NCBI GenBank assembly: GCA_016748015.1
Contig: JAAOMT010000096.1
Coordinates: forward strand, 453,087 to 517,086
Direction: 5' to 3'
Length of the DNA stretch: 64,000 nucleotides
From: Geosiphon pyriformis uo1
Taxonomy: Eukaryota; Fungi; Glomeromycota
Shown one piece after another: positions 148-61,231 of this stretch. Both the position numbers and the translations under genes were made by a program. The notes below the pieces were generated by a model that ran no database searches, had not been told where the DNA came from, and saw only the letters and a program-made list of their open reading frames with translations. Each line of letters begins with the position of its first letter. The first letter of the stretch is position 1.

Positions 148-790
148 AATAAATGTAATAAAAACAACAATAAAAGATAAAAATCTTAAATCACATTTAC
201 ACAATAGCACAATAATTATTCTAAGCCATAAATCAACAACAATTGAACATAAAAATTATCATTAATCACCAAAAAATTTGTTATAAAAACACAAAAAGAA
301 AAAAAAAAACAAAGATTACTTTATATTAACAATTACAAAACCAAACAAAACACTAATTAAATAAAATTATAAAAAAAGTAAAAAACACTTTTGGAAAAAT
401 ACCAATTATTGTTTAAACAAAAGAATTAACTAAAAAAACTGAAAGCTATAGATAAAACAACTTCTAATAGCATACTGTTATTATTAATTAAGACAAAAAC
501 TAAATATTTAGAAATTGTATATCAACAAATCCAAAAAAATGTTTAATTAAGAAATAGTACAACAGATTAAAGACTTTATTAAAAAAAAACAAGTTATTAA
601 TTACATACTATATTTTAAAATTATTCAAAATACTATTATATTTAGAAATAAAAACAATAACTATTAACCAGTAAGAAAGAATAACCAATTTTTAATTCAA
701 AGACATAAAACCCAAAATTAAATAAATAGTATTAGAAAAAAAAATAATAAACATAATTCAAAATAAAAATTTCAACAAAGCTTAATATTA
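148..790 (+). pseudogene. Degenerate accessory ORF3 of family E
   Basis: Lies between the integrase tail and the PPT. The stop-riddled translation includes YCYY*LRQKL...YILYFKII...IKTITINQ*ERITNF*F, echoing the ORF3 motif spacing in A and B. Boundaries are approximate. Confidence 0.35.
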
Positions 791-23933: not shown

Positions 23934-24656
23934 TGTTATAAGTTGGAGTAACAAACTAACAGATAGCAAGAGAGAACAGGATTGTAGGGTGATGGAAATA
24001 ATCAAAGAGGAATTTAACTTTAAAGAGCGAATTGAATGAATATGGATTCAATGTGCGAGATCAGTTTCATAAAATATCTCAGTCACTATTCTTTTCAAAA
24101 GTAACTGGAGAATCTGAAGGTAGAAGGATAGTTTATACTGTCAAAAATTGATCACCACTGGTATAATTCTATGCCTCACATCAGCATTCTTAGAATTCAA
24201 TATCAAGTATCAACTTGTGCTTTTCAGTCACATTTATTTAAATAATCTTCAAATACTTCATTTAATCATTTCAGAAAAAGGCAGATAAACACCAACAAAA
24301 GATCTTTTATCCAAAAGATGTTCAGATACTTGAAGGTAGGGAAAGAGAAATTAGTGATAAAAGAATGTTTGAGATAAAAGTTGTTTTATTATATTTCTTT
24401 GATTATTGGAACATACTTTTTTACAGCTAAGAGACTCATTGCTTATATAGCTATGAAAAGTGATCAATGACCAGGTCAATAATCAGATCAATAATCAAAT
24501 CAATGATTAGATCAACAGTCAGATTAATGATCAGGTCAATGATCAGGTCATTAATTAGGTCAATGATTATTATCTAAAAATAGGTTGGCTAATTATATGA
24601 CATCAGTGGCTAATACATGTGATAACTAATAAAAACTATGAGTTTCAACCATAATA
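23934..24656 (-). repeat. 3' LTR B1 (723 bp) with an expanded 12-bp GATCAGGTCAAT repeat
   Basis: TGTTAT...CCATAATA termini, PPT GGAGAAGATGA adjacent on the minus strand, about nine repeat units at ~24460-24570. Confidence 0.9.
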
Positions 24657-25282
24657 TCATCTTCTCCAAAGAGATTGAACTTCGGCGAAATCAAGCTATT
24701 TATGGGATATTCTAATTAAAGGGTTTTATCCAACTCAAAACTAACTAGTTTGTTAAAGTCTTTTGTGGATAAAGTGTATAGTACTTAAAACAAAATAAGC
24801 TTTATATCTAAGAGACCAAATCTTTGTATAAGAGTTTTGGCTCTTCTGGCAATGATCAAAACTCTTGGAACATCCAACTATATAATGCCCAAAATTTCCA
24901 CTTGTATCTTAGAAGTTGTTTTCTTCATGAGCTTTATGTCTTCTATGATTTCACCAAAGTGACCATAGAGCTCTAGTTGTCTTCCATATAACAAGTTTTT
25001 GTCTATGGGCAAGATTTTTTTAATCGTTTTTCCAATTGTGGTAGAAGGTACAAGTATTGCTGCTGTTATGCTTTCTAACAGATACTTATCTATTTTGCTA
25101 CCAATTTTTTCTCTTCTGGTAGTTGTTTTCTTTGGTCTGATAACAGTATAAATTCTACTGTTGTTAGTTATTGTGGTCTGTTTTCCAATAGTCAGGATAG
25201 TATTTGGATAGTTTTTGATCCAATACTTATGGAGAGTATAGAAAGCATTTTGAATGTTTTGATCCAGAAAATAATTGTTCAT
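24626..25282 (-). pseudogene. Accessory ORF3 of the left B element (has internal stops)
   Basis: Homologous to the open 31591-32247 ORF and ends inside LTR B1. Confidence 0.75.
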
Positions 25283-25323
25283 GTCGATTGAAGATATCTT
25301 TGTTTTGGGAATGATGTATTTAT

Positions 25324-26637: not shown

Positions 26638-26703
26638 TATTGTGTTTGTTTGTGGGAGAGTTACTAATAATTAGTTTTGGTTTGGTTTGAGGTGATTGTA
26701 CTG

Positions 26704-30914: not shown

Positions 30915-30943
30915 ACAATAAGAGAATAAGTGAATTTTGACAA

Positions 30944-30960
30944 CCTCACAGAGAGCACCA
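30944..30960 (-). promoter_or_regulatory. PBS of the left B element (TGGTGCTCTCTGTGAGG)
   Basis: Lies 6 nt from the LTR end. Its complement reads CCTCACAGAGAGCACCA, a tRNA-like 3' end. A second copy is at 37940-37956. Confidence 0.8.
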
Positions 30961-30966
30961 CTTTTA

Positions 30967-31621
30967 TGTTATGGATTGGAGTAACAAGCTAATGGATAGC
31001 AAAGAAGAACAGGATTGTAGGGTGATGGAAATAATCAAAGGGAATTTTAACTTTAAAGAGTAAATTGAATGAGTATGGATTCAATGTGCGAGATCAGTCT
31101 CATAAAATATCTCAGTTGCTATTCTTTTCAAAGATAACTGGGGAATTTGAAAGTAGAGGGATAGTCCATACTGTCAACAATTGATCACCACTAGTATAAT
31201 TCTATGCCTCACATCAGCACTCTTAGAATTCAATATCAGGTATCAACTTGTGCTTTTCAATCACGTTTATTCAAATAATCTTCAAATGCTACAATTATAT
31301 ATGTCAGGAAAAGGCCAACAAGTAATCTTTTATCCTAAAATGTTCGGATACTTGAAGATAAGGAAAAAGAAATTAGTAATAAGAGAGTAATTAAGATGAA
31401 AGTTGTTATTTTTATTTATTTGATTCTTGTCTGAGAGATGATTTTCTACAGCTAAGAGACTCATTGCTTATATAGCTATTAAAAGTGGTCAATAACCAGG
31501 TCAACAATTAGGTCAATGATCAGGTCAATGATCACTATCTAAAAATAGAGTGGCTAATTATATGACATCAGTGACTAATACATGTGATAACTAATAAAAA
31601 TTATGAGTTTCAACTGTAACA
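30967..31621 (-). repeat. Shared middle LTR B2 (655 bp)
   Basis: TGTTAT...TGTAACA, near-identical to B3. Confidence 0.92.
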
Positions 31622-32247
31622 TTATCTTCTCCAAAGAAATTGAGCTCCAGTGAAATCAAGTTATTTATAGGGTATTTTAATTGAAGAGTTTTGTCTAACT
31701 CAAAACTAACTAGTTTGTTGAAGTCTTTTGTGGATAGAGTATATAGTACTTGAGACAAAATAAGCTTTGTATCTAAGAGACCAAATTTTTGTATAAGAGT
31801 TTTGGTTCTTTTTGCAATAGTCAAAACTCTTAGGACATCTAAACATATAATGCCCAAAATTTCCACTTGTATCTTAGAAGTTGTTTTCTTTATGAGCTTT
31901 ATTTCTTCTATGATTTTACCAAGATGACCATAGAGTTCTAGTTGTCTTCCATATGACAAGTTTTTGTCTATGGGCAAGATTTCCTTAATCGTTTTTCCAA
32001 TTGTTATGGAAGATATAAGTATTGCTGCTGTTTTGCTTTCCAGCAAATACTTATTCATTTTGCTACCAATTCTTTCTCTTCTGGTAGTGGTTTTCTTTAG
32101 TCTAATAACAGTATGTGTTCCACTGTTATCAGTTATGGTGGTTTGTTTTCCAATGGTCAGAGTAGCATTTGGATAATTTTTAATCCAGTACTTATAGAGA
32201 GTGTAGAAAGTGTTTTGAATGTTTTGATCTAAAAAATAATTATTCAT
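31591..32247 (-). CDS. Accessory ORF3 of the right B element (218 aa from ATG, open, function unknown)
   Basis: Uninterrupted frame downstream of integrase, conserved in the left copy, crossing the PPT and stopping inside the LTR. Confidence 0.7.
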   Translation of the reverse strand: MNNYFLDQNIQNTFYTLYKYWIKNYPNATLTIGKQTTITDNSGTHTVIRLKKTTTRRERIGSKMNKYLLESKTAAILISSITIGKTIKEILPIDKNLSYGRQLELYGHLGKIIEEIKLIKKTTSKIQVEILGIICLDVLRVLTIAKRTKTLIQKFGLLDTKLILSQVLYTLSTKDFNKLVSFELDKTLQLKYPINNLISLELNFFGEDNVTVETHNFY

Positions 32248-32288
32248 ATCGATCAAAAATACCTCTGTTTTGGGAATGGTGCATTTAT

Positions 32289-33609: not shown

Positions 33610-33674
33610 GTTTGTCAAAAAGGGGGGGGCAATTACTAATAATTAAGTTGGTTTTGTTTGAGAGGATTGTTCTG

Positions 33675-36600: not shown

Positions 36601-37910
36601 AGGTTGCTGGGGCTGGTTAAAACAAGGTTCGTATTTAGGTTTTGGTAGTTGCTGGTTATTTCTGACTGCTTGTGCCAAAGGTTCTAATAACTGGGCAAGA
36701 TTGGCTGTGAGTTTATTAATTAATTGTTTATTTGGATCTTGAGTTTGGGCAGCAAAAAAAGCAGCAGCCATTTGAGGGGCAGGAGCCATGACAGGAATAG
36801 AAGCAAAAACTGGAAGTGTAAATCCCAAATGTATTCTTTGGTTGTCTTCAATTTGTTGGGCAAGTTTAATGGCCATGTCCATTATAGGATTGTTTTTTAG
36901 GGCCAAGAGAGGCCAAAGAGCATAAGATAAATCAGTTCTCAATCTTTTTGTAAAGGAATGAATCTTTTGTTTTTCTGTCCAGTTTCTCCCAGAGTTTACA
37001 TGTTTGATTAGCTTTCTAATAGCTTTGGCATATTCAGTCACTACTTCTCCAGGGCCTTGGGTTCTTCTTTCCAATTCCATGCACCATTTAGATATTAATA
37101 TTGGGGTTCTGAACTTGGCCTTAAATCGGGTAGTGAAAGAGATATTTTCTTCTCCAGCATTAATTGGTGTCTATCTGATTATTCTGTGTTGAGCATTGGC
37201 ATCTGTTTTTTGTGAAAACCAGGTAGCAGAAGAGCCTTGAAGGTAGCCACCAACGATTTGGAACTTGTATTCTTCATCATACTGGTTGGCTGTGGCAGCT
37301 CTCTCAAAATCATCCAACCATTTAATTGGATTTTATGCATCATCTCTAAATAGTGGTAGTGGGGTATTGTTTCTTCTTCTTAGAGCAGTTTGTATATCTT
37401 GGAGGGCGGCCAGAATGTTTGCTTGCATGGGGTCATTAGCCATTGGTTCAGGGGTAACTGTTTGTGTAGATGAGTCTGATTCACTTGATAAAAAGTCAAA
37501 AACAGGGGCAGTTTGGTAGCTTTCTTCTTTTGTTTCAAGGGGAGTTATAGTTGATTGGTAAGCAGCAACCCAAATGTGTATTTGGTGATTCTAATATTCG
37601 AAATCAGGGGGCTGTTGTGTGAAAGTTGTGAAGTATAAAAGCTAATTGATGCTATTATTTCTTTCTTTAAAGTTGTCTTCAAAATAAGCTTGATCAAAGT
37701 AATAAGTTGTATATGCTGTATAGGTTTCAGTGAGTGCTTGTTTAGGAACCAGTTTCAAAAGTCTTAGAATTGTCTACTGGATTGTTCTTTAAAGAGGAAG
37801 CAGATCAAGCAGGAGGGCAGAGGATTAAGTTCAATGAAATCTAGGTCATTTTTGTTGTGTACTGCAAAGTGTTCTTCTGATTGCTGTGGCAGATATAAGT
37901 AATTACCCAT
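33675..37910 (-). pseudogene. gag-PR-RT-RNaseH pseudogene, right B element
   Basis: CYYCGLTGHYSRDC, LILDSRSS, YLDD and the RNase H end NADALSRL, followed by a stop. Confidence 0.9.
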
Positions 37911-37962
37911 ACAATGAGAGAATAAGTGAATTTTGACAACCTCACAGAGAACACCACTTTTA

Positions 37963-38617
37963 TGTTATGGGTTGGAGTAACAAGCTAATGGATAGCAAAG
38001 AAGAACAGGATTGTAGGGTGATGGAAATAATCAAAGGGAATTTTAACTTTAAAGAGTAAATTGAATGAGTATGGATTCAATGTGCGAGATCAGTCTCATA
38101 AAATATCTCAGTTGCTATTCTTTTCAAAGATAACTGGGGAATTTGAAAGTAGAGGGATAGTCCATGCTGTCAACAATTGATCACCACTAGTATAATTCTA
38201 TGCCTCACATCAACACTCTTAGAATTTAATATCAGATATTAACTTGTGCTTTTCAATCACGTTTATTCAAATAATTTTCAAATGCTACAATTATATATGT
38301 CAGGAAAAGGCCAACAAGTAATCTTTTATCCTAAAATGTTCGGATACTTGAAGGTAAGGAAAGAGAAATTAGTGATAAGAGAGTAATTAAGATGAAAGTT
38401 GTTATTTTTATTTATTTGATTCTTGTCTGAGAGATGATTTTCTACAGCTAAGAAACTCATTGCTTATATAGCTATTGAAAGTGGTCAATGACCAGGTCAA
38501 TGACTAGGTCAATGATCAGGTCAATGATCACTATCTAAAAATAGAGTGGCTAATTATATAACATTAGTGACTAATACATATGATAACTAATAAAAATTAT
38601 GAGTTTCAACCATAATA
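37963..38617 (-). repeat. 5' LTR B3 (655 bp)
   Basis: TGTTAT...CCATAATA with an adjacent PBS. Confidence 0.92.
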
Positions 38618-38771
38618 CTACAACCAATGAAAATTCAATATATTGGCAAATTTACAAAACTGAAATTTCAACAATTTTTAGACCAAATTACTATGATTAT
38701 TTTGGATTACTATCTTAGTATTACAAATAGTGTTTGAACTTTAATAAAGCTCAGTCTTAAGAAAGAAATTA

Positions 38772-39730
38772 TGTTACCAGTAGAATTTTAATTATTAATT
38801 AGCATAAAATTACTCTTTTAATTTCTAGCATTAATTAATATATATTATTATTATTTCAATTATCACTTATTAGTTAATTAAATTATTAAATATTATTATT
38901 CAATTAATAATCTGATTTGTACTATAAAAATTAAGATGATCAAATTACACAATACCTTAAACTATTTAATATAGTTAAAATTTGCCGAAATTGATTAAAA
39001 TTGATCAAAATAATCAATAGTTCATAGAAATAACTTGTAGTTTGCTGAAATGTATTTTTGGTTTGCCAAAATTATAGCAAAGAAAAAAATGCAAGTTTAA
39101 AGACTAGTACTACAACAAGTTGTATAAAAAAAGAGCTTCTCTTTTCAAGAAAATATATCTTATTTTACTTTTTTATTTTAATTAGAACAAATTATCTTTT
39201 ACATATTCTTATAAAATCAAATAAAAAATTAAATATTCGAAAACCAAATTATTAAGTACTATACTTGAAATTTACAAAAACCTAAATAATACTTTGAAAT
39301 TGATTAGCTACCAATATCAGTAATTTGTTAGTGACTTTAGGTCTGGATAGAAAACGTTTCCCTTGATAGAATTCTATTTCTTTTACAATTCTTTTATTTT
39401 TCTTTTATTTTTTTATTATAATCATTAGAGTAATTTATAAACAAGATTTTTATAGAAAAGTTGATTTTTACAGCAAAATAATTACACAATTTAGTTAGCT
39501 TTTAGATAAGCAATTCTTGGAAAAGAGTTGACATTTATTACAATATAATTATACAAAGTAACTGGCATGGAATTGGCCATTTCACTTATAAGTCCAGCAG
39601 TTCAAATTATAGGAAATAATTTGAAAATAAATTCAGTTATTGGAGATTTAATTATTTTCAGAAAACATAAATTCACAACAAACAGATATTAACAACATTC
39701 AAGAAAAGAGACCAAAAACCTCCAATAACA
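38772..39730 (+). repeat. 3' LTR of A-I
   Basis: Preceded by the ORF3 tail and the purine tract AAGAAAGAAA. Termini TGTTACCAG...AATAACA. Confidence 0.9.
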
Positions 39731-40090: not shown

Positions 40091-41072
40091 TGTTACCAGA
40101 CGAAATTAGAGATATTGTTTAGCATGAAATTATCCTTATAAATCTTATCATTAATTAACATATATTATCATTTCAAATTATCACTTATTAAATTAGCAAA
40201 ATGTTCGAAATTATTATTTAATTAATAACTCAATTTGTACATAACACAAATGTAACTTAAGTGTGATGATCAAATCATGCAATACCCCGAAATATGTAAC
40301 ATTCAAAAGTTTGCCAAAATTTGTAGAAATTTGCCGAAATAATTGATAGTTTATCGAAATATCTAATAGTTTGCAGAAATAACTTGTAGTTTGCTGAAAT
40401 GTATCTTTAGTTCAGTAAAATTGTAGAAAAGAGCAAAGTTCAAGTTCATGAAATAGTGTTACAACAAGTTGTATAAAAGAAGGGCTTCTCTCTTCAAGAA
40501 AATATATCTTACTTTAGATTTATTACTTAGAACCATTTCTATACACACAAAAAGAAATAAATATCAAATAATTCAAAAAACCAAATTTTTTAATTATTGC
40601 ACTTGGAAAATTCCCAAAACCCAACTAACGTTTTGAAATTGATTAGCTACCAATTTCAGTAAAACTGTTAGTAACTCCAGGCCTAGATAGAAAACATTTC
40701 CCTTGACAGAATTCAATTTCTTTACTTTTCTTTTACTTTTCTTTTATTTTCTTATTATTATCATTAGGGTAGCCTACAGATGAGATTCCTGTAGAAAAGT
40801 TGACTTTCACAGCAAAATAACTACACATTTTTAGTAAGCTTCCAAACAAGCAATTTCTGGGAAAAAGTTAACATTTACTACAACATAACTACATGAAGCA
40901 ACTGGCACAGAATTGGCCATTCCACTTATAAGCCCAGCAGTTCAAATTATAAGAGATAATTTGAAGATAAAAATTCAGTTATCGGAGGTTCAAACACTTT
41001 CCATAGTCATGAATTAACAGCATTACAACAAACATACAAAAGCTAAGAAGAGACCAAAAACCTCCGGTAACA
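40091..41072 (+). repeat. 5' LTR of A-II
   Basis: TGTTACCAG...CCGGTAACA, TATAAAA at ~40472, AATAAA at ~40556. Confidence 0.95.
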
Positions 41073-41117
41073 TTTGGTGCTCTCCCACAGAAACAACACA
41101 ACAAAAACAACTTCAAA

Positions 41118-44100
41118 GTGGCGACCACATCAGATGCAACAACTCTAGAGTATTACCAGTCAATTTACACCCACTGCAAGCAAAGATTCAACATTCCAGA
41201 CGGAATTAAAGTTGTCAAGAAAGCAGTATACCAATACATTGAAAACTGCATCAACAATTATCTTTTTGGAAATTACAATATTTCAGAAGTTAGAAACAAC
41301 CTTTACAATAATTTAGTACACTATTCCCAGTTGGGAACTGAAGACCTTAATAGTAAAACACTTGCCACTTACTTTCAAGAACTTAATTTTAACATTATTA
41401 AGTACTGTAAAGAAACATATTCAGTGCAGTCTTAATACTTTATTGATTTTGAATCAGAGACAGAAACAAGCAACAAAGGCAAACAAAAATTGAAACAATA
41501 CTCAAAAACCATCCCAAATACTCCAATACTACCAAAAACAACTGCCAAACACTTACAAACACCTGAACAAGAAACCAGTTCAAAACTTCCACTTACTATT
41601 ACACCTTTTTCAGCTTCACTTGCACAAGCACAAACACCTAATTCACCCTTAAATTGATTTGCAAGACTAGAAGATTTTACATTATTCAGAAGTCCCACCA
41701 GACAACAAGAACCTCTTCAAACTAGTTCCAATCTCCTTGACTTTCTAGCTAAAAATTGAAGTAAACACTCTGAGACAGCAGCAAATGAAGAAAATAACTC
41801 TGAAATATCTGAAGAAGAATTAATAGACAGTGAAAATGAAGAAGACAAAATGACAGCATAGATTGCAAAAATCCCTGAATTTAATGGAGAAGACATTGAG
41901 ACCAGTCCCCAAGAATGACTCGACCAAGTTACTAAAGCTGGAGATGCAAATAGATGGAATGCTGCCAAAATGTTAAGAACAATTCTTTACTTTCTTAAAG
42001 GAACAGCAGGCGAATGGTTTGAAAACTTGACCACCCCTTTTAATGACTGGACAGCTTTCAAAACTGCCTTCTTAGAACAATTCACTGATAACAACACCTC
42101 AATCACACTTCGAAATTGTTTTCACAATATCAAACAAAAACCCTCCGAATCTGTTATGACTTATATTGGGAAATTCAACAAACTTCTCAGACGAATTCAC
42201 CAACTTGAAACTAATGATTATTATTCTGATGCTCAAATCTTGGATCAATTTATTGCTGGTTTAAAGGATAAACTGATTAAAAAGATTTGCCCACATGCCC
42301 CAGAAGATTTAAACTCTGCTATTTAGCATGCAAAGAGATATGAAATGGCCATGGAAGAAGCCAATCATACAAAACTTGTGAACTTAGCCATTGGAGAGAC
42401 CAGCTCAGCAGTTAAAGAGAAAATTGACCAACTCACAAAGAAAGTCGAAAACTATTTTACCAACTAACAACAACAGCAACCCCAAAGATATCAACCACCC
42501 CAAAGACGAAATCAAAACAACTTCATATTATCCTCTAATAACCAGCCTCAGAATTGCCATTACTGTGGAATCCCTGGCCACTGGAAAAGAGATTGTAGAA
42601 AGCTACAATGAGACCAACAAAACAGGAGTAATCAACGTTACCCTTTGCCACAACAATCTTATTATTAACTACCACTACCACCAGCTTACTATTCACCAAG
42701 ACTGCAATATCAAACCGACTACTATCAACCTGCTCCATAGCCAATACAACAACAGTATCAACAACTCATTCAACATTACCAAGTATCTGCTCGAAGATTG
42801 GTTCAACAAAACCAATTTGCATCACAAAATTGATTCGCAACAAACAACAACAGAATCAACCCAAATAATCAATTAGTTCTCTGAAATCCAGCTTAGCCAA
42901 GACTCACCCATTATCATACTCAACCTAGCTATCTTACAATACCTGAAAAACAGGATTTTTACCATACTGTACTCTCGGAAGGTAGAGCTGCAGCACGACA
43001 ACAAAACCCTTCCTATACTCCTACTACAATTCCACCAGCCAGAATTGTTGAAAATGCCAACCTTTTGAATATATTCCCTTTTGAGTTTGAAGCAAATGAG
43101 TCATAATTCCTGCTTAGCAATGCAGCCACCAATGAACAAAAAGCAATCACTGCTATGTACATTGAAGCAAAAGTCGAAGGAAAGACAATTCACTTGATCC
43201 TAAACAGTGGATCTGCTAAAAGCATCATCACCTATCAGTTAATACAACAGTTAAAGAGAAATGTTGACCAATCAGCTCAAACAGTAATCGTTACTGCTGA
43301 TGGCATGAAAAAGACTCCAGTAGGAGAAATTGACAATTTTCTGTTTACTCTTGATGGAATCACCATTCCAGTCAAAGTTTTTGTAATAGACACTCCTTAG
43401 TATCAAGCTCTTGTCAGAAATAACTGGCTTCAAAAAGCCAATGCAAAATTAGACTGGGAAACCCAAGAACTACAAATCTCTTATCAAGGACAACATGCCC
43501 AAGTATCTGCCACTTGTGGTACATTCAACAAACACTCTGAAAAAGCCCTGGCTTTTGAATTCGAACCAGAAGAAGAAAAACCAATAATTGAAACATTCAT
43601 GGCTCTTGGATCAATGTCCAATTGGGCCGAGGAAACTGAACAAGAACATTTTACTCCACACTCTGAACCTGAAACTCCTGGATGGAATATCCCTTACTCA
43701 AAGCCTAAACCAAGAAAACGATGCCCCTACATTCCCCTTAAATGTAAGGACTGCCACAAGAAACTATCATTAATAGGAGCTTGTATTTCACCTGAGGAAG
43801 AATATAAAAGTCATACCTGCTACTACTGCAAAGCCTGCCATCGAGAACGATGGGACCACTTGATCAAAAGAAGTGAAAAATGGGATAGAACACCCTGTCT
43901 TACTTGTGGAAAGCAGTTTTCTGATGAATGTGATTGGATTGATGTTGTATTTAGAGGAGGAGTCTGTGATCAAACTTGCCAATATGCTCTTTCTATTGCA
44001 GAAAAGGTAAAACATAGAACACCTTTCAATGCTGCATACAATAGTGCCCTCAACAAACTCTATCATTATCCCCATGATGCCGAAATGATCTATGAACTTG

Positions 44101-46736
44101 CCATGGTTTTAATTAACAGAAGAACCAAAGAAGAGGTCTTTCAAATAAAAGAAGCTGAATATATCAAATATATCTTGGAATTAGCTGGATTCGATTATGA
44201 AGATAAAGTAGAAGTATACCATCAAATCACAAGTCACACCTATCTGACCAAAGAAGCTTAAGCTCAATAACTAGAACAAATGAACATTAAATTATGTGAG
44301 AAATGCATAATGCCTTGTGATGAACAATAGTGTCCTGAATGCTATGCTCTTAGCATTCCATTACCTAGTGAAAGTAATGAATATGAAATCAAATTTGGTA
44401 AACCTAAAGCAACAAAAGAAATTGAAACAACACCCGTCTATCTTATTGAAAGTTAGCCTATTTTACAGCTTAAATACTTTAACAACAACAGACAAGGAAT
44501 AAAGCCTGAAAAAGCACATAAAATTGATGCTAGATATGATCTACGATATCCAGGAAAAGACACTTTGGTTCTTCAATCAAATTTTTTTACCAAGATCAAT
44601 CTCAAAATTGCCTTCGAAATTCCACCAGAAGCAATGGTCCAAATTGTTTCACGATCATCATTGGCAAGCAAAGGAATCAATGTTAGAGGAGAAATCATAG
44701 ATGCTGGATATACGAAAGACATTACAATCATGTTACAAAATGAAACCGATAAACTTTTTCAGATTGAACATGCCAAAAAAATTGCTCAAGCTATTTATTT
44801 ACCCTTAATCAACATTTCGGGTTTACAATTAGTCAGTCAAAGAGAACAATTGGGAAAAAGTAAAAGAGAAACCAATGGTTTTGGTTCAATTGGACGATTC
44901 ACAATTCCAGTAAACATAGCTTTTAATAAACAAAGTAAATCTCACCAGATTCTACGACTTTCACAACCAATTACTATTTTATTATTTAGGGAACATCTGG
45001 AAATCTACATCTGCCCAAAGCCAACAACCACACAACAAATTTTTGAAACTAATGAACAAGTTTGCTTGGAACATAATATCTTGATCCCAAACATTTATAT
45101 TCCAGAAGGAACAAAGAAAGTCCAAGTTATTTTTTACAATCCCAACAATTATTCCATAGTTTTATTAAATAACTTAGAAATTGGAGTCATTCACAGTAAT
45201 ATCTTTCAACAAGAACTACCCCAAACAGTTTTCGATTTCTCGGAAATCATTAGATATTCACTACCAAAAATCAACCCAAACTCCAGCTTTGAAAACTACC
45301 ATGTTGTCATGGAAAAACTATCTCGAATCAACATGGGACAACTTGAACCACAACAACAGAACCAGCTCAAAGAGCTAATTGCAGAATTTGCTAATATCTT
45401 TGCCGAAAACAAGAATGACTTAGGAAGAACTGATTTGGTTTAACACGAAATCTATATACAAGATGCCAAACCAAAATGACAACAAGCCTACCGAGTTGCT
45501 CCAAAAAGCCACCAATTTATCAAAGAAGAAGTACAATGAATGCTTAACAATGAGCTTATTCAACCATCAATGAGTCCATGAGCCTTATCTGTGGTCTTAG
45601 TTAAAAAGAAAAATGGAAAGATACGATTTTGTGTTGATTATTGACAACTCAACAGTGTTACCATTGAAGATGCCTATCCTCTTCCCCAAATTAATGACAT
45701 GTTGGATGCTCTTGGAAAGTCCAAATACTTTTCAACATTAGATTTGGAGAGCAGATACTGGCAAGTTGCCATAGATTCCAAAGATCACTCCAAAACAGCA
45801 TTCACCACTTAAGGAAGAAATTATGAGTTCAACGTAATGCCTTTTAGATTATGCAATACACCAGCAATATTCCAAAGACTCATGGATGTTGTTTACAAAA
45901 GCCTCCTTTGGAAATCAGTAGTTGTCTATCTCGATAATACTGATGTTTATTCACCATCTTTTGAATTACACTTAAAACACTTGCGAGAAGTCTTTCAATG
46001 ATTACAAAAAGCAGAATTGAAACTGAACATCAAAAAATACTACTTCAGAAAAACGAGTTTGGTCTTTTTTGGCCACATTGTGAACAAAGATAGAATTAAA
46101 CCAGATCCTGGAAAAATTAGCACTGTCAAAAACTTCAAAACTCCATGAAATACCACAGAATTGAAAGGATTTATTGGATTAGCTTTTTATTACCAAAAAT
46201 TCATCAAAGGATTCTCAGAAATTGCAAAACCCCTCAACCAGCTTACTACTAAAAACGTCGAATACAAATGAATGGAAAAACACCAAAAAGCTTTTGAAAT
46301 TCTTAAGGAAAAGCTGATAATAGCTCCAATTTTCGCCTACTCAGACTTCAGTAACTGATTTTGACTAGCTACAGACACTTCTTACACTGCCTTTGGTGCC
46401 ATTTTATCACAATTAGATAACAATGGAAATGAGCAAGTAATTGCTTATGCTAGCAGAACATTAAAACTAGCTGAGAAAAACTACTCTGCCACAGAACTAG
46501 AAACAGCAGCCGTAATTTGGGCCCTACACCACTTCAACCTTTATCTCAAGCCTAAAGAATTTGATATTATTACTGATAATATTGGACTCAAATGGCTTCA
46601 GAACAAAAACACCCAACTGAATGTAAAACAAATCTGATGAACAGGATTTTTAGCCAACTACCAATACATTGTACACCACAAACTAGGAAAACTCCACACC
46701 AACATTGATTGTCTTTCAAGAATAAGACAAGATTAG
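41118..46736 (+). pseudogene. Single-frame gag-PR-Cys domain-dUTPase-RT-RNaseH polyprotein pseudogene of A-II
   Basis: ORF pieces at 41118, 41970, 43155, 43599, 44565 and the RNase H end all share one frame and are broken by point stops. Motifs: CHYCGIPGHWKRDC, LILNSGS (from DSG), YLDN (from YLDD), NIDCLSR then TAG. Confidence 0.9.
44500..44897 (+). pseudogene. dUTPase domain within pol of A-II
   Basis: The five trimeric dUTPase motifs occur in order: DARYDL, SRSSLA, GEIIDAGYTKDI, KIAQ, KRETNGFGSIG. Confidence 0.9.
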
Positions 46737-46785
46737 AAAATAGAACCAACACCTATTTGAATTAACAGCAACAAAACAACAAACA

Positions 46786-48171
46786 ATGAACCCTGAAAAC
46801 TACAACAATCTTAAACAATATCTGGAGACATTAACAATCCCAACAGATTGATCCCCAAAGGAAAAATGTCAGTTACAACAACAAGCCAAACAATATTTCT
46901 TACACAACAACATTATTTATTATCAAAACTTCAGAATCTCAGACAATCCACTCAAATTAATACAAGAACATGAAAAAGAAACTATTTTATACAACATGCA
47001 CTCAGACCTTTCATCAGCACATCTAGGAAATGACAGCACCACCCAAAGAACACTAGAATATTACTTTTGGCCTCGAATAAGAAAAGACATTCATAAATAC
47101 ATTAAATCTTGTGATAGTTGTCAAAGAAGAAGAGAAACTCGCCATACAGAACCATTAAACCCAATCAAAGTTGGACAGCCTTTTGACCAAGTTGGTATCA
47201 ATTTAGTTGGACCACTACCTATCACAAACCAAGGAAATCATTATATTGCAGTAGCTGTAGACTATCTCACTAAATGGCCCAAAGCCAGAGTCATTCAACG
47301 AGCAGATGCAAAATCAGTAGCAAATTTCATCTATGAAAACATTATCTGTAGACACAAATGTCCAATCAAACTTTTATCCAATCAAGAAACATATTTTGTA
47401 AACAATCTAATTCAAGCAATCTGTGAACAATTCAATGTCAAAAAACCTCTGTCTTCACCCTACAATTCACAGACAAATGGACTCATAGAACGTTTTAACA
47501 GAACATTGTATGAGTCATTAGCCAAAGTCTCAACCGATTTTGAACAAGAATGGAATATCTTTATTCTATCAGTGTTATTAGCATATAGAACATTAAAACA
47601 AGATACCACAAAACACATACCATTTGATTTAACTTACAGAAGGACAGCAATGTTACCAATTAGTTTTATAGTAGAAACATATCCAGCACAACTAATCAAT
47701 AAAAACAATTTTCAGGAAACACTTCAACAAAGAGCCTACACTCTGCTTAGCACATTGGAAGGAAAATGACGAATAGCAGCCACCCATATTGAACACTTCC
47801 AAGCTCAACAAAAAGAACGGCATGACAACAAATTGCCTCCAATCACCAACGAATTTAAAGTTGGAAACAAAGTTCTCTTACACAGAACTAAAGCTAAAAA
47901 ACAATAAAGTGAAAAATTTGAAAATAAATGGAATGGGCCATTCTTTATCCATGAAGTTCTAGGCAATGGATTATACAAGCTAAGACTTGATAACAAAATC
48001 CTAGCAAAAGTTGCACATGGAGATCATTTGAAACACTATAATTCCAGAAACAATCCTGAACTATTAATTCCACAAATTGGTACACATTCTCCTTTAATCA
48101 ATTCTGAAGATATTCTCCGAAATTTAGAACCAATAGTCGTTATTGAACAACCTCCCAACTTGAACACTTAA
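46786..48171 (+). pseudogene. Integrase ORF of A-II (own ATG, +1 frame relative to pol)
   Basis: MNPENYNNLKQYLE..., HSDLSSAH...CDSC, DYLTKWP, QTNGLIERFNRTL, WNGPF. No chromodomain. Confidence 0.9.
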
Positions 48172-48294
48172 CTTAAATTTATTATTATTATAGTTATCTC
48201 CTTATAATTTAGAAACAATCTCACAAAAACAAAGCAAAAATAATAAAAACCCATACACCAAAAATAATTTTCTTTTATTTTCAAATCTTTTATA

Positions 48295-49011
48295 ATGACT
48301 ATTCTTCAAAACATTCAACAATTATCCCAAAAACTAATGTTAGCTTTAAAAACAATACTCGAATTATCTATTACTGTTACTGGAAGCCACATTAATTATA
48401 CCCAAACAGAAGTAGTTACAAATTTAGCCCCAAATTCACGAAAATATCACCCGTATAAGAAGAACACAAGAAGTTATTCTGGAATTTACCTGCCAGAACT
48501 TTTAAAGCTTGCTTTAAGAGAAAACTTAATGTTTACTCCTATTAGTATTCTACTAAATACTACTATTCAACAAAAACTTCAACTGTGTCTTAATGAAGAA
48601 AACTATGACTATACTCCAATATATAGATACTTCTATATTGGAAAAACACTTTATGAATGAAAATGAGAGCTTACAGCAGCAAACCTCACAAAAGAAGCTA
48701 TTTGGAAACAACTCCACAACAAATTCAAGACAACAGCTGGACCTACAAACAGTTATTATAAACTAAGAGCTGCTTTTAGACTTTATGACCTATTCTACAC
48801 CTGTGAAAACGTTCTACAAAACCCAATTTTACAGTCTTTGAAGATTCAATACATTGGAAAACTCACAGAACTGAAATTTCAACAATTTTCAGACCAAATT
48901 TCTTCAATAATTTTGGATTATTATCTAGAAATTACAGACAGTACTTGGACTTCGATGGAGCTCAGTTTTGAGGAGATTATGTTACCAGACAAAATTAGAG
49001 ATATTGTTTAG
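48295..49011 (+). pseudogene. Accessory ORF3 of A-II (238 codons with two TGA stops, probably from CGA)
   Basis: The frame continues past 48660 (...LRAAFRLYDLF...IQYIGKLTELKFQQF...SMELSFEEIMLPDKIRDIV*) through the PPT into the LTR. The homologous tail is at 38618-38771. Confidence 0.75.
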
Positions 49012-49961
49012 CATGAAATTATCTTTATAAATCTTATTATTAATTAGCATATATTATCGTTTCAAATTATTACTTATTAAATTAGCAAAATGTCCGAAAT
49101 TATTATTTAATTAATAACCCAATTTGTACATAACACAAATGTAACTTAAGTGCGATGATCAAATCATGCAATACCCTGAAATATGTAACATTCAAAAGTT
49201 TGCTGAAATTTGTAGAAATTCACCGAAATAATTGATAGTTCACCAAAATATCTAATAGTTCACAGAAATAACTTGTAGTTTGCTGAAATGTATCTTTAGT
49301 TCAATAAAATTGTAGAAAAGAGCAAAGTTTAAGTTCATGGAATAGTGTTACAATAAGTTGTATAAAAGAAGGACTTTTCTCTTCAAGAAAATATATCTTA
49401 TTTTAGATTTATTACTTAAAACCATTTCTATACACACAAAAAGAAATAAATATCAAATAATTCAAAAAACCAAATTCTTTAATTATTGTACTTGGAAAAT
49501 CCCCAAAACCCAACTAACGTTTTAAAATTGATTAGCTACCAATTTCAGTAAAACTGTTAGTGATTCCAGGCCTGGATAGAAAACATTTCCCTTAACAGAA
49601 TTCAATTTCTTTACTTTTCTTTTACTTTTCTTTTATTTTCTTATTATTATCATTAAAGTAGCCTACAGACAAGATTTCTGTAGAAGAGTTGACTTTTACA
49701 GCAAAGTAACTACACATTTTTAGTAAGCTTCTAGACGAGCAATTTCTGGGAAAGAGTTGATGTTTACTACAACATAACTACATGAAGCAACTGGCACAGA
49801 ATTGGCTATTCCACTTATAAGTCCAGCAGTTCAAATTATAAGAGATAATTTGAAGATAAAAATTCAGTTATTGGAGGTTCAAACACTTCCCATAGTCATG
49901 AATTAACAGCATTACAACAAACATACAAAAACTAAGAAGAGACCAAAAACTTCTGGTAACA
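48980..49961 (+). repeat. 3' LTR of A-II
   Basis: Same length as the 5' LTR, and the differences inspected are transitions. Confidence 0.95.
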
Positions 49962-52650: not shown

Positions 52651-55600
52651 TAATTATACAAATTTTAAATTATATAATACTAAAAAGAATTTTTAATATC
52701 TTAATATGTTTTTTTATTTAATATTTATTTTAATAATTTAATATATTTAATAATAGTGTTATAATTGAAATTCACAATTTTTATTAGTTATTACATATAT
52801 TAGTTAATAATATCATATAATTAACCATCTTATTTTTAGATAATAATTATTAGTCTAATTAATTATCTAACTATTAACTTAATTATTAATCTGATTATTA
52901 ATTTGATTGTTGACTATTTTTAATAGTTATAAAAATGATAAGTTTTTTAGCTATAAAAAAACATAATCAAAGTAACAAAATAAAATTTATTATTAATTAT
53001 CTTTTTTTATATTGTTTATTTTTTTTTTTCTATTTTCAAATATTTTGAGATAAAAAATTACTTGTTGGCATTTACATATCTTATTTTTTTTCTTTTTAAT
53101 TTGTATTATTAATGTGTAAACACAAATGTGATAAATTAAGTTTAAAAAATTACTTAAAATAAAAGCACTAAATCTTTTTGGTTTAAAAGATAAATATTTA
53201 TTTATTAACATAAGTTCAAAAATGCATAATTCACATTTATAGTAATTTTATGTAATTAATATAAAAATGAAAAAACCAACCAATAAAAAAAACAATCTGC
53301 AATTAAAACTTTGACAGTTATGTTTTAAAATTAATTTTTACTAATGCAAAGTAATAACAAAAGTTTCAAAAATATCACTACTTTTTTTCCATTTCCAACT
53401 TTTCCCAAATAAATCTTTCAATAAAATTTACTATCCACATATGAACCAAGCGATGCCATTGGGTGAGAGTATAACGTAATCAACAGAACCTTGCCGTTTT
53501 TGCCTTCGATAAATTTATTCTGGTAAATCAGAATGGTGGCAAGAAACAAATAGACGTATATAGATTTTGTAGCTTCACTCGATACGTTAATGTGGGAGCA
53601 TTGAAGCGCTTCTTATATAGAATACAATGGGTAATTCGAAATCAATCATCATACTTCCGACTCGATCAAGAGTTTTTGCAGTATCGCTAAATGTGAATAG
53701 CCAGGAAACATCAACATTTAGAAGTGCCAAACTTTGAATTTGAAGAACAGCTAGACGATATTTAACACAACGGGAATTTGATAAACTTTCACATTTGATT
53801 ATTCTTTTTGCTAAAACCATAGAGCAAGCACACCTTTGGAAAATTTCAATTCATTAAATGCTCAAAGATATATGAAAGTGCTGTTACATTATATTTTGAT
53901 GACCTATAACCGACTATTTATGAATACGGGTTTTCAGATAAACCATGATTTTGAGAACATATTCGCAATCACAATCAAAAGCAATGTGTGCTCTTATTTA
54001 TGAAGCCGCTGCCACATCACCAGCCGTTCCCTAACTTCCTGCAGCTTTTGAAGATTCGGTGTGGACATTTTCATGAGGCTAGTGGCTAGAATTCCAAGTC
54101 AGTTATTGTGTGCTATAAATCAATTAACTGTGTCTTTGATTTAATTATCCCGTTTTACAAAGTGAGAGCCGTCCAGCGCAGTCTGAAAGTAGGGTGGCCA
54201 GCTAATTGAGAGTACTTGGGCCAAAAATATCTTCTTTGCCTTAATCATTATATTTCTTAGCTTTTGGTGGAAATGACATCACATAGATCGCCGCGGATTT
54301 AATTTATCCGCTTTAGGTTTTTGAGCATTCGCAATAAATTATATCAATAAAAGATTATGTCATTTTTAGATCACCACACCTTATGTAAGGTTCTATGCTC
54401 TTTATAATCGATGGTAACAAATCAAAAATTTGATATCGTCTTGTGTCAAGCATTAGGATGCTATTCGACAATTCCTCTTGGCAAAAGCAAAAATCCTACT
54501 TTACAATCCTGTTGCAATGAACAGCTAGTTTATTCCAAATTAGGGAAATTGGTTTGTTCCAAGCCTGAGAGCTATTGATGGCGTTAATTATAGAAAACCC
54601 AATGCAAAGCCTTTCCTTTATAGTAATTGGACCGTGCCATTTCGATTCATAAAATTGAGGTGGTTACAAAACGTGAAGGAACATCATTTCCAACTTTTTT
54701 TGCAGGATCACATTAAGATGCATTGTCGCTCCCTTTTCCAGGCCAATGTGATAGAGCAACCTGAAATAGACGTGTATTGATCGGAAACTCAAGTAGGCCA
54801 CAAAATTAAAGATGCATAATGCAGCAGGAGGTCTTGAATCGAATTGATAAAGGTAAATTTGATCAGACTGTTTGCAGAGCAAATTTTGGTAATACTTTGA
54901 TCGCAGGTATGGTCATTCAATTTCCTTTTTGATTGATTCGCAATTAGACATTCAGGTCAGCGCTCGCGAATTTTTTCTGTCGGATTGCTGTTTAACACTG
55001 CAGTTTAAAAGTTCACGTTCGCAGCGGCTTTATGATATGTGCATGTTGTACATTTTTTAATTAATCAGTATTTTTGGTTCGAGATTAACAAGTGAAACAC
55101 ATCCGGGATTACAAATTAAACTAATAAAAAAATGCAACCAAATATATTATAAGAGAAGATTCGCAAGGAATAGTCGCACTCCTTAAAAATATCTTGCATG
55201 TTAAAAATAAAAGTCGAGTCAAGAATTTGAAATTAAATTAAAAATTTCAAGAGTGTAGCCGAGATGATGAGACAACAAAATTGTTTATTTTATTTGATGT
55301 TTGAAAAATATTTTGACGCTCTCTCCGAATATTCTCCGATTACGTGTTCGTCGTTCTAAGTATTGCAATATTTGAATCGCAACGAATATTGGTTGTAACA
55401 GATACCTTCCTCTTTCAGTAATCATAATTCGACAAATCATCCAAAGGAGTAATAAACAAACATTTTTCCGGGATTGAAAAACACATGGCCTGAAATCCTA
55501 CCTTTTTAATTCAAACTGCATATGTATCTCTCGGACAATACGCCCTGGACGTAATTGCGCAGTACTGCATCTTGATCTTTGATTTGCTCCCGAATAAAAC

Positions 55601-57875: not shown

Positions 57876-58731
57876 AGTAGCAAAAACACCCAACTTTTTT
57901 AACTGCTCTTCTGAGTTTTGAACTCGACTTTCGTTCTCCTTATTTTTTTTTCTGCTAAAAAGCTGCTGCCTGCAAATATTTCTTTAATATTTGCGCAATC
58001 TGTAAAAGTAGTCTTCTCATAAAAGGGATACTATTCACCTCATCTCTTCAAGTTTTTTGATATTCTTGTTGCTATTTTTTCCTACTCCTCATAATATTCC
58101 CTTCGCAGTCTGGTGTCTTTTATCCCGACTACTCTGTCCAATATCTCTCAAACAGCTTACAAAGGTACCCTTTTGTAAAGGTAAGCTTTATCAAAATTAA
58201 TATAATCTAGTGCTTAAGAGCATATCTTGGAGCTTTAGAATTTGAGGTTTTTGAAAAAGAATTTCCTTTGAAGTATATGCTTCCTTATGGGTCCTGAAGT
58301 AACGTTTACTATTATTGCGTAATTGGATAGAAATTGAAACAGCATAGACTCTTAAACTAATGATCAAGCTACCAATAGGCTTGCTGCGTTTAATGTTTGT
58401 TTTGATTTTTTATATCACATATTATGATATCACCCAACAAGTTACTATACAAGTGAATAAAAATACTAATAATAATTCTTCTCTTTTCTTCTCTATACAT
58501 GGTTCTTTCCCAAATCAACTTCTTGCCATCAAAACTATCAAACTTGTCATCTATTGTCCGAATATATAAACTCAAAATTTTTATAAATTTCACGGTACTT
58601 TTATTATTCGATGATAAAAAGGTCACACCTCGCAAATAAAGTCGAGTTTCCACAACTGGGTCGAATTTCTTGGAAATTATTTGTCGCTCTCTTTTTCTTC
58701 TTTGTTTTTAAAAAAAAAGTCATCATCAATC

Positions 58732-59848
58732 ATGACCGATTATATGTTAGCCGAAAGGCCAAGCAAAAGAGCCTACCTTGGTTCCCAGTCCAGTTTCTAT
58801 GACAATGATGAACAATTCTTTGCTGCGGCTGATCCAGTTTACACATCAGTTCTTGGAATGTCCAATACATCTTCATCTATCATGCCTGATCTACAATCTG
58901 GCTCATGCGGTGGCGACAAGGAGGGCACCGCTAGGGAACTTTCGAGTTCTGGAAACTCGCTCAACCATTCAATCTCCAATCGTCCAGAGGCTCTTGATGA
59001 TGCCAAAATTGCAATCAATAAGGGCACTGATGCAAGCACAGACGTCCCCATAAACGATAGCTGCAAGGCTGAGCCAAGCAACCACAAGGAGATTGCCGAA
59101 TTAAACGGTAATAAAATTGGTAAATCTATTTCTTCCAAATCTCCGTCATCCACGTCCTCCCAACAGCAGCCGATTACCTCACCACCACCACCACCTACAC
59201 CCACAAATAACAAAAAGCGCACACGCGCTACCCCCGAACAGCTAGCAATTTTGGAAGAGACCTTCAAAACAAACACTTCTCCAAATAGCAAAGTTCGTGA
59301 AGCTTTGGCAGAAAAAGTGAACATGTCTGAACGTTCAATTCAAATTTGGTTCCAAAATCGTCGTGCAAAGATGAAGGCAATGCAGAAACGTGTTCATATG
59401 CTTCATGAAGAAACGATGAAAGCTCAATTCCTTGCCTGTATGCCTGGATATGGTCATAATTTGTATCCTTTCCGTATGCCGATGCATCATGCGCAACGGA
59501 TTGCACTTCCACGTTCCTACAGTGCTAATGATATTGTTCCAGGTTTGAATAATGTTGCAATTGCTCCTGGTATGAGAACTGCTCATTCAACGGCAGGTCT
59601 CGGGATTTCAATGCCGCAAGCTCCTCAAGGTTTCTGGGCTTCAGGACCAATGACGGCACCAATTCCTCAAATGAACCCTTCTGATCATAACATGATGAGT
59701 GGTTTTCCTTTTTCAGCCAATCAGCAATCGAGATACCCTATCTCACCCAGCGCTAGCCCAAATTCTAATGGAATGACCCCTCCTCAAACTTTGCGTCTTG
59801 TCGTAGACCCTTCAAATCCCACCGGTGGGATTCCAATCAAAGTGAACG
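58732..59848 (+). CDS. Homeobox transcription factor, Pho2/Phx1/HOY1-like, exon 1
   Basis: ATG at 58732. Homeodomain KKRTRATPEQLAILEETF...IQIWFQNRRAK at ~59212-59390. Donor G|GTATGT. Confidence 0.92.
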
Positions 59849-59936
59849 GTATGTTTGTTGCATAAATCCTTAAATATTATTAAATCAAAATTTTAATCTC
59901 ATAATTAAATCAATTGATCCAAATTCTTCCGTATAG
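59849..59936 (+). other. 88-bp spliceosomal intron (phase 1)
   Basis: GTATGT...TAG, AT-rich. Splicing joins exon 1 in frame (N-D-H-Q-V) to the 59996 ORF. Confidence 0.9.
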
Positions 59937-61231
59937 ATCACCAAGTATCCCTCTCAAACTCTCAGACTCAACAGTTCACCCCACCTCAAGAATTCATGAC
60001 CCCAAATTTCAACAATGATTCTATCTCTGTGTTACAATGTGAAACGCTAACCATCGGTAGCTGGCGTCGGATCTCGACAACTCCAACAGACCTCTTGTGC
60101 TATTATACTCTTCCATCAAAGATGTTCACATATCATATCACCAATAATAATCGTCATTTCAAAATGGAGTTTCCATTAACTGAGATCACCGCCATCGAAT
60201 TCCAACCCATCGATAATCTTTATAGTCAAATTGCCGTCGAGGTTAGAGATCCGCCAAATTTCTTTATGGAAGGATCTCATGGTCAATGGGCCATGTGTAC
60301 CGATTTCACTGAGGATAAACAAGCCACTCGTCATATGAGGCATGTAATGAAAGGCCGTACCGATTCATTGAAAAAACAATTGATCAAATTCATGCAAGAT
60401 GATCCTCAAATTGCTAAGGTCGTGTCCCTCCACGACTCTGCCAATGATATCAAGCATGAAATTGACATGGCTATGATGTGCAATGGTGATGATCAACATC
60501 CTACTAGTGAAGAACAGAATGCTCCACGCCGCTCATCTTTCCCAAGCGGTTCGATCGCCGAAAATTTGCGATTTGGAGAAGATTCCGGATCCCTCTCGGA
60601 TAGAGAAGTTGACATTAGAAATGCTGAGATTATGAGACAGCATTTTCGAACTCGTCGTTCAGCTTCGGTGCCCTTATCACCCTCTGATGAGTTTTCCGAC
60701 CATTCCGCTTCTGCTTTGAATAACGCAAATTCAGTCATAGGGGAAAACGCATCTTCTCTCCAAATTAATACTTCAGTCGCTTTTCTCGATTTATTCAAAG
60801 GTCACATGAACAATGTTGATAGCTCCCCTGACTTCTATTCATCGCCAATGGAACTTAACTCATCTTCCCCATCTACACCACTTGACGCTTATGATCATTC
60901 TCCTGATCTTATTCATACATCACCATTATTGGAACAAGATCCTTTTGTAACCTTATCACAACATAACCTTACCAATTTGTCAATCGAAACGACAACTAAT
61001 TCTTTATTCTCTGATGAACTTGCCGCCGCTTTGAGTGCCACCAATGGTTTACCTAGCGTAACTAATGAGGATTTTGCCAGTATGTTTATCGGTGTTAGTT
61101 CTGGTCACTCATCGGATGGTAGTGAATTTTTGAATTTTGGTGATTCTCTCGGTAATGGTGATAATCTTTCAAGTTCTAATCATGGCCTCGGCTTGGATTC
61201 CTGGGTTAGTGGAGATGTTGCCTATTGTTAA
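59937..61231 (+). CDS. Homeobox transcription factor exon 2 (total protein 803 aa)
   Basis: Contains CETLTIGSWRR...DLLCYY...FKMEFP...W..CTDFTEDKQA, the conserved second domain of Pho2/Phx1-type proteins, and an acidic Ser-rich tail. Confidence 0.92.

What the first reader, a model, noticed from the sequence alone, without database searches (positions are those of the whole stretch)
48295..49011. Conserved non-env accessory ORF3 in the env position of families A, B and probably E
Seen: a ~220-240-aa ORF follows integrase, crosses the PPT and stops ~30 nt inside the 3' LTR in both A and B. The LTRs are unrelated, yet the proteins align by eye. The pairs are YFYIGKTLYE / LYGHLGKIIEE, RAAFRLYDLF / TIAKRTKTLI, IQYIGKLTELKFQQF / SQVLYTLSTKDFNKL and SMELSF / SLELNF. 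There is no signal peptide or transmembrane stretch, so it is not Env. Inference: it is an ancestral soluble helical accessory protein (a regulator, targeting factor or anti-silencing factor). The 'A.R.Y.LF...I..L...F' pattern recalls an uncharacterised repeated helical domain in AM-fungal proteomes (from memory, unverified).
Basis: partly seen in the sequence, partly recalled or inferred. Interest (0 to 1): 0.8.

Follow-up and report, generated by a model that had tools for sequence, protein, structure and literature searches.

The report
Third gene of fungal jumping genes
Behind their integrase gene, these fungal retrotransposons carry a real, conserved extra gene for a small soluble helical protein that likely acts in the nucleus to help the element express itself, but the extra genes of families A and B show no measurable kinship with each other.

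Summary
The ORF3 slot is real; the A-B kinship is not shown. In two Ty3/Gypsy families of a fungus close to Geosiphon pyriformis, a sense frame follows integrase, crosses the polypurine tract and ends 31-32 nt inside the 3' LTR. The flagged copy carries two in-frame stops; intact 239-aa (A) and 218-aa (B) copies are numerous. Both frames are under purifying selection (dN/dS 0.19-0.45; other frames about 1). A-type ORF3 is an old family: three deep Geosiphon lineages, two metagenomic proteins (19-34% identity) and a decayed copy at 177-760 behind an integrase tail. B-type ORF3 scores like shuffled sequence against family A (z 0.2; true relatives z 10-19), and the shared 'ELSF/ELNF' end is a DNA motif beside the PPT. 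A-type proteins lack any membrane segment, have a confidently modelled helical core and keep a basic, PY-NLS-like linker. Best guess (inferred): a nuclear trans-acting helper of the element's own expression. The scan has noted similar ORF3s on other DNA. New variant of a known kind (extra ORFs of LTR elements).

The parts
48295..49011 (+). ORF3 of element A (238 codons; this copy broken by TGA at codons 122 and 124)
   Evidence: (206 relatives at E<=0.001; intact 239-aa copies at 79-87% identity)
40091..41072 (+). 5' LTR of element A (TGTTACC...GGTAACA), preceded by TTGG
41075..41084 (+). primer-binding-site-like TGGTGCTCTC, the same 10-mer as in family B
41919..42323 (+). Gag capsid region (Retrotrans_gag, Ty3_capsid), part of a stop-riddled frame
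44457..45443 (+). dUTPase domain between protease and RT
   Evidence: PF00692, E 4e-16
45339..46700 (+). RT and RNase H, with stops
46852..48171 (+). integrase (H2C2, core, SH3-type tail), with stops
48172..48294 (+). 123-nt AT-rich spacer between the integrase stop and the ORF3 ATG; holds TAG trinucleotides after pyrimidine-rich stretches (possible splice acceptors, untested)
48957..48968 (+). GGAGCTCAGTTT, DNA motif just upstream of the PPT, shared with family B (31637-31648, -)
48970..48979 (+). polypurine-tract-like GAGGAGATTA, read through by ORF3
48980..49961 (+). 3' LTR of element A, followed by TTGG (4-bp target duplication)
31591..32247 (-). ORF3 of element B2, intact, 218 aa; no measurable kinship to A-type ORF3
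24626..25282 (-). ORF3 of element B1, 3 stops, 81% identical to B2
38618..38791 (+). C-terminal remnant of an A-type ORF3 (sister subfamily ending MLPVEF) before the LTR at 38772
177..760 (+). heavily decayed, frameshifted A-type ORF3 of a distant lineage, directly behind an integrase tail (21-122); end approximate
   Evidence: 25.2 bits; 0 of 500 shuffles, best 5.7

Best explanation
ORF3 is a real, selected third gene of these fungal Ty3/Gypsy retrotransposons, and its soluble helical product likely enters the nucleus and acts in trans on the element's own LTR DNA or RNA to promote its expression or export. Shown: position, purifying selection, absence of a membrane segment, and an old A-type family. 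Predicted: a short N-terminal helix-hairpin, a flexible basic linker ending in Pro-Tyr, and a compact helical core of about 130 residues. Inferred: that the linker is a PY-type nuclear import signal, that the core binds nucleic acid, and that the protein is made from a spliced or otherwise subgenomic mRNA. The B-type ORF3 fills the same slot, probably as a separate or unrecognisably diverged family.
For: Selection: B1/B2 ORF3 dN/dS 0.24 (95% interval 0.15-0.41), or 0.42 (0.28-0.68) with transition weighting; the two shifted frames and the antisense frame give 0.93-1.34 with weighting; five B pol regions give 0.29-0.67; the 53-codon A/A' piece gives 0.19, or 0.45 (0.22-0.89). Depth: 35 representatives at E<=0.001, including two metagenomic proteins (E 2.5e-16, 1.7e-12) that end in the same PPT/LTR-encoded EE(E/K)IMLPD; lineages 19-34% identical align at z 10-19. 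Position elsewhere: 7 of 51 hits carry the integrase-tail family PF24626, always N-terminal of the ORF3 part; the decayed copy at 177-760 follows an integrase tail. Model of relative P0268 from a 40-sequence alignment: mean pLDDT 71, about 90 over residues 81-160; linker 40-52 under 50. The linker carries net charge +4 to +6 in residues 41-60 in all 8 proteins printed, B included. An [RKH]x2-5PY match occurs in all five deep A-type lineages: A 15 of 25, A' 8 of 28, D 6 of 6, F 2 of 4, metagenomic 3 of 3; chance 3-8% per shuffled protein. That is the PY-NLS consensus (PMC2408616, start of abstract in listing). Precedent for a nuclear RNA-export helper in an LTR element: CERV (PMC10309623, abstract).
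Against: No test of localisation, binding or expression was possible. The PY match is short, is inherited rather than independent, is lost in many decayed copies (PY in 15 of 25 A and 15 of 28 A' copies), and is absent from B (0 of 20). Several proteins are near neutral or acidic overall (pI 5.8-9.1). No Pfam family reaches its cut-off. The splice-acceptor-like AG in B is shifted by one base between B1 and B2. The model is of a 30%-identical relative; the model of family A itself was poor (pLDDT 43.6).
Confidence: 0.4

Rival explanations
1. Anti-silencing factor: ORF3 would bind cognate elements or a host silencing protein and keep the family unmethylated, as VANC does for plant Mutator-like elements.
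For: The elements are under strong methylation-type decay: CpG observed/expected 0.28 (A) and 0.10 (B2) against 0.83 in the neighbouring host gene; all 57 differences between the A LTRs are transitions. Fast divergence between lineages suits sequence-specific co-evolution. LTRs cover 41.2% of the G. pyriformis genome (PMC11952901, passages). VANC precedent: PMC13547354, passages.
Against: No similarity to any chromatin or silencing domain was found by sequence. Heavy CpG loss shows that silencing usually wins. It cannot be told apart from a transactivator by sequence alone.
Confidence: 0.2
2. Pre-integration cofactor: ORF3 would ride with the particle or cDNA-integrase complex and supply nuclear entry or target-site choice.
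For: The integrases end in an SH3-type tail and no chromodomain was detected, so a targeting module could lie in trans; the PY-NLS-like linker fits an import role; the host group is coenocytic, with many nuclei in one cytoplasm (recalled).
Against: Yeast Ty3/Tf1-type elements manage nuclear entry through Gag or integrase (recalled); there is no evidence of binding to integrase; insertion bias was not measured.
Confidence: 0.2
3. A-type and B-type ORF3 are one ancestral family diverged beyond sequence detection, whatever the function.
For: Same slot, similar length, same charge profile, colinear N-terminal pattern, shared PBS and pre-PPT motif, pol proteins 38-52% identical; pooled A-type profile against B z 3.1, 4 of 200 shuffles.
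Against: B against A, D, F and one metagenomic lineage z -0.2 to 0.3; the reversed B profile scores 15-20, like the real one at 20; true relatives score 47-92. HMM scores of 20 B proteins equal those of shuffles (1024 of 2000 reach the median). hhalign probability 0.1-0.4%.
Confidence: 0.35
4. Env-like or membrane protein for cell-to-cell spread.
For: It occupies the env position only.
Against: No hydrophobic segment in 120 of 120 A relatives; 0-2 cysteines; about 230 aa; all-helical soluble model.
Confidence: 0.03
5. Non-coding 3' region that stays open by chance or through cis-element constraint.
For: The last 20 or so codons overlap a DNA motif, the PPT and the LTR start; the flagged copy has stops.
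Against: Frame-specific purifying selection; protein-level conservation at 19-34% identity across lineages; a confident folded model.
Confidence: 0.02

Closest known systems
Additional sense ORFs between pol and the 3' LTR of plant Ty3/Gypsy elements (Vicient and Casacuberta 2020, PMC7264820; abstract read)
   Same: A family-wide extra ORF in the pol-to-3'LTR slot, of unsettled function.
   Different: The plant sense ORFs are described as Env-like; these have no membrane segment, run across the PPT into the LTR, and are fungal.
Additional ORFs and dUTPase in fungal Gypsy elements (Novikova et al. 2010, PMC2864245; passages read)
   Same: Fungal Gypsy elements with an 'additional ORF of unknown function' (figure legend) and with dUTPase between protease and RT, as in element A.
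   Different: That survey concerns chromoviruses; no chromodomain was detected here. I could not see the figure or the supplements, so kinship with those ORFs is untested.
Non-envelope ORF3s of bdelloid LTR retrotransposons (Rodriguez et al. 2017, PMC5408684; abstract read)
   Same: dUTPase-bearing lineages in which the ORF3 slot holds different, unrelated non-Env proteins; a precedent for A and B filling one slot with different genes.
   Different: Those ORF3s are recognisable enzymes (GDSL esterase, DEDDy exonuclease) or membrane proteins; no such family matched here.
CERV of C. elegans Cer1 (PMC10309623; abstract read)
   Same: What it may work like: a novel nuclear accessory protein of an LTR retrotransposon that is needed for export of genomic RNA.
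   Different: CERV comes from a demonstrated spliced mRNA and its function is shown; no sequence comparison was made here and splicing is not shown.
DUF1016_N / YhcG N-terminal helical domain (PF17761)
   Same: Weak motif echo (Y..IG.., R.Y..F); 7 of 55 A members hit, best E 0.015.
   Different: Far below the cut-off (12.9 against 32.8 bits for the first member); profile-profile probability 1%, E 0.054, 18 columns, with the reversed control about equal.

Membership tests
Ty3/Gypsy (Metaviridae-type) LTR retrotransposon (carrier) | Terminal direct repeats with TG...CA ends, target duplication, PBS and PPT | tested here: met
Ty3/Gypsy (Metaviridae-type) LTR retrotransposon (carrier) | Order gag-PR-RT-RH-IN, Ty3-type capsid | tested here: met
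Retroviral/errantiviral Env | Signal peptide and transmembrane anchor | tested here: not met
   Hydropathy only (no signal-peptide predictor run): 0 of 120 A relatives reach 1.6; intact B proteins printed peak at 1.18-1.37
Retroviral/errantiviral Env | Fusion-glycoprotein fold | tested here: inconclusive
   Model is small and helical; fold searches
Additional ORF of an LTR element | Present in many copies in the pol-to-3'LTR slot, under selection | tested here: met
One ORF3 family spanning A and B | Significant profile similarity between A-type and B-type | tested here: not met
One ORF3 family spanning A and B | Same predicted fold | not tested
   Both fold jobs went to A-type alignments
Rev/CERV-like RNA export or LTR transactivator | Nuclear localisation signal | tested here: inconclusive
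   PY-NLS-like match in five A-type lineages, none in B
Rev/CERV-like RNA export or LTR transactivator | Spliced subgenomic mRNA; binding to the element's RNA or LTR; effect in trans | not testable with these tools
   No RNA data were available to lay
DUF1016_N (YhcG N-terminal domain) | Score above the Pfam cut-off or significant profile-profile match | tested here: not met
GDSL or DEDDy enzymatic ORF3 | Match to those enzyme families | tested here: not met
   No such Pfam hit up to E 1 in 55, 34 and 40 members

The most novel reading that the evidence does not exclude
In a fungus whose many nuclei share one cytoplasm, the env slot holds a new class of nucleus-entry protein: ORF3 carries the element from the nucleus that made it into other nuclei, doing between nuclei what Env does between cells, and it helped drive the LTR expansion of this lineage.
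Probability: 0.1. Interest if true: 0.8.

Novelty: new variant of a known kind. Interest (0 to 1): 0.45.

Why it matters
LTR elements cover 41.2% of the G. pyriformis genome (PMC11952901). An accessory gene kept under selection across lineages only 19-34% identical is a candidate for how these elements succeeded in a multinucleate fungus, and it gives a defined, soluble, modelled protein to test. It also explains hundreds of 'hypothetical proteins' annotated in this fungus (129 and 206 hits) as transposon genes rather than host genes. Extra ORFs in LTR elements are a known phenomenon and no function is shown, so the interest is moderate.

Tried and rejected
A-B homology: BLASTP, hhalign on three profile pairs, cross hmmsearch, shuffle tests: none significant. 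Fold searches: Foldseek on PDB with both models, no match at E<=0.001; viral library none, best E 0.02 (100); VIA-align over 48,161 chains best Z 5.5 (rmsd 3.3, 51 aligned), below the usual background for helical bundles. Weak rows such as the CHD1 C-terminal domain (Z 4.8, rmsd 3.9, 84 aligned), Orc6 (4.8, 5.3, 82) and a filamentous archaeal virus chain (4.7, 3.1, 67) are not evidence; a missing match does not show a new fold. PDB sequence searches: best E 0.46, none, and 5.6. PHROGs: unnamed phrog_23683 in 15 of 40 members, best E 1.4e-4 (102); NCBIfam: FtsQ in 19 of 40, best E 4.6e-4 (103); both rejected as weak hits among closely related members. DUF1016_N lead tested with 37 YhcG N-termini (38 loci picked of 80, one dropped for a stop): not significant. 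DNA scans for relatives: viral contigs and metagenome contigs gave none, so no DNA context for the two metagenomic proteins. No RNA holder listed; one DNA run, possibly the window's own source, laid 13,798 contig pieces on 46800-49100 (37) and showed four variant positions in the spacer; not used as evidence. Homodimer job: no answer. Atlas: answered only for P0268, recognition 2186, under the 2300 mark, top hit an unnamed mostly Mucoromycota cluster at 0.94 (81); B did not complete. No whole genome is held, so genome-wide copy counts and positions were not measured. Earlier-findings look-ups by sequence: 0 look-alikes in 3 of 3.

Full report
Host and carrier. All 120 listed relatives of each ORF3 are named Geosiphon pyriformis hypothetical proteins (120 shown of 129 and of 206), so the window is from that fungus or a close relative. 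Element A spans 40091-49961: LTRs with TGTTACC...GGTAACA ends, a TTGG target duplication, a TGGTGCTCTC primer site, then gag, protease, dUTPase, RT, RNase H and integrase, all with stops. Its LTRs match at 927 of 984 aligned positions, and every difference is a transition. Family B is a tandem of two elements on the minus strand, 23934-38617, without a detected dUTPase; its pol domains are 38-52% identical to A's.

The observation. The A frame begins 123 nt after the integrase stop and ends 32 nt inside the 3' LTR; both B frames end 31 nt inside theirs. The flagged copy has TGA at codons 122 and 124, B1 has three stops and B2 is intact. Many intact 239-aa and 218-aa copies are on record.

Is it a gene? 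Yes. Between B1 and B2 (215 codons) dN/dS is 0.24, or 0.42 with transitions weighted 8:1; the shifted and antisense frames give 0.93-1.34 with the same weighting; five B pol regions give 0.29-0.67. The 53 shared codons of A and its sister copy give 0.19 or 0.45. These are two pairs of decayed copies, so the values mix old selection with later neutral decay.

How old is the A-type family? A profile of 55 near-full-length copies (chosen from the 120 listed) found 35 representatives among 1.84 billion proteins. I looked up 8 of them: six are Geosiphon and two are unnamed metagenomic proteins, P0267 and P0268. A second round found 51 proteins, 50 labelled Geosiphon. Together they give five deep lineages, A (with sister A'), D, F and two metagenomic, at 19-34% identity, which align at z 10-19 with 0 of 200 shuffles reaching the score in 7 of 7 pairs tested. 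Position is kept. Seven of the 51 hits carry the integrase-tail family PF24626, and in all seven it precedes the ORF3 part in a fused gene model. The metagenomic proteins end in EE(E/K)IMLPD, which in A is the translation of the PPT and LTR start; their position is inferred from that alone, as their DNA could not be fetched. In the window itself the deep profile finds a decayed, frameshifted copy at 177 to about 760 (25.2 bits; 0 of 500 local shuffles), directly behind an integrase tail at 21-122 (E 7e-5).

Are A and B related? Not measurably. BLASTP gave E 1.3 and hhalign 0.1-0.4% probability. Twenty B proteins score like their shuffles against the deep A-type HMM. In the calibrated test B scored z -0.2 to 0.3 against four lineages, 2.7 against one metagenomic protein and 3.1 against the pooled profile (2 and 4 of 200 shuffles; 7 and 8 of 200 local shuffles), but the reversed profile scored 19.9 and 15.4 against 20.5 and 20.4. 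The SMELSF/SLELNF pair lies on the DNA motif GGAGCTCARTTT, whose only two exact matches in the window are just before the PPT of A and of B2. Lineage F proteins end in GAQF, which is that motif read in another frame (inference), so the match is best read as a cis-element. In favour of remote kinship remain the slot, the length, the charge profile and a colinear N-terminal pattern. I put it at about one in three. B's wider family was not profiled against the large library, and B was not folded.

Anatomy. No A relative has a membrane-length hydrophobic window (0 of 120). A model of P0268 from a 40-sequence alignment has mean pLDDT 71: a helix and hairpin (7-38, pLDDT 57-64), a low-confidence basic linker (40-52), and a helical core (82-216; about 90 over 81-160, about 80 to 190). 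The linker keeps Pro-Tyr after a basic or His residue in all five deep lineages. That is the C-terminal PY-NLS consensus given in PMC2408616 (start of abstract in a search listing). Fold and family searches are told under Tried and rejected.

Mechanism. A soluble protein with a probable import signal, kept in the slot that retroviruses express from subgenomic RNA, most simply acts in the nucleus for its own element. I commit to a trans-acting helper of expression or RNA export (0.4), like CERV (PMC10309623, abstract). Rivals are an anti-silencing factor (0.2) and a pre-integration import or targeting cofactor (0.2). CpG depletion of the elements (0.28 and 0.10 against 0.83 in a host gene) shows the silencing pressure such a protein would face. 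None of these steps is tested.

Comparison with print. Extra ORFs in this slot are known in plants (PMC7264820, abstract), bdelloids (PMC5408684, abstract) and fungi (PMC2864245, passages; its figure and supplements were not seen and may bear on kinship). Five searches listed no paper describing a Glomeromycota ORF3; I read passages of PMC11952901, which give LTR content and show no such ORF in the 12 of 16 places displayed. Subscription journals are largely not covered. Two earlier notes of this scan describe similar ORF3s on other genomes; three sequence look-ups found no look-alike, so I cannot say whether they are the same family.

Verdict. Observation partly confirmed; a real accessory gene of an unnamed protein family; A-B kinship unsupported; new variant of a known kind; interest 0.45.

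Noticed in passing
window 43500-44450 (+): Between protease and dUTPase, element A has a roughly 300-aa Cys-rich insert (several CxxC motifs around a helical stretch), also present in the sister element at about 51% identity; no Pfam hit for 43401-44258.
   Followed up: no
window 23934-38617: Two B elements share a middle LTR inside an A-sister element. The left flank matches A at about 48192 and the right flank at about 48830, and the junction 4-mers differ (GTAC, CTAC), so about 640 bp including most of that ORF3 is missing; recombination between two nearby B insertions is a likely cause.
   Followed up: partly
window 18629-19609: A third LTR of the A-sister type interrupts that element's pol region, probably a solo LTR.
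   Followed up: no
window 41075-41084 and the matching sites after the B and A-sister LTRs: Families with unrelated LTRs share a TGGTGCTC primer-binding site, and the pre-PPT motif TGGAGCTC differs from it by one base.
   Followed up: no
window 58618-61231 (+): Host gene(s) with a homeodomain and a TRF2/HOY1 PH-like domain; CpG is not depleted.
   Followed up: no
window 4570-7399 and 11948-14797: Two decayed inverted copies (about 66% identity) of a long repeat; it looks LINE-like by eye, with no Pfam hit in the three + frames of 4200-8400.
   Followed up: partly
window 1400-3400 (-): Gag remnant of another Gypsy family, 39% identical to A's Gag core.
   Followed up: no
window 52753-53073: AT-degraded remnant resembling a B-family LTR.
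   Followed up: no
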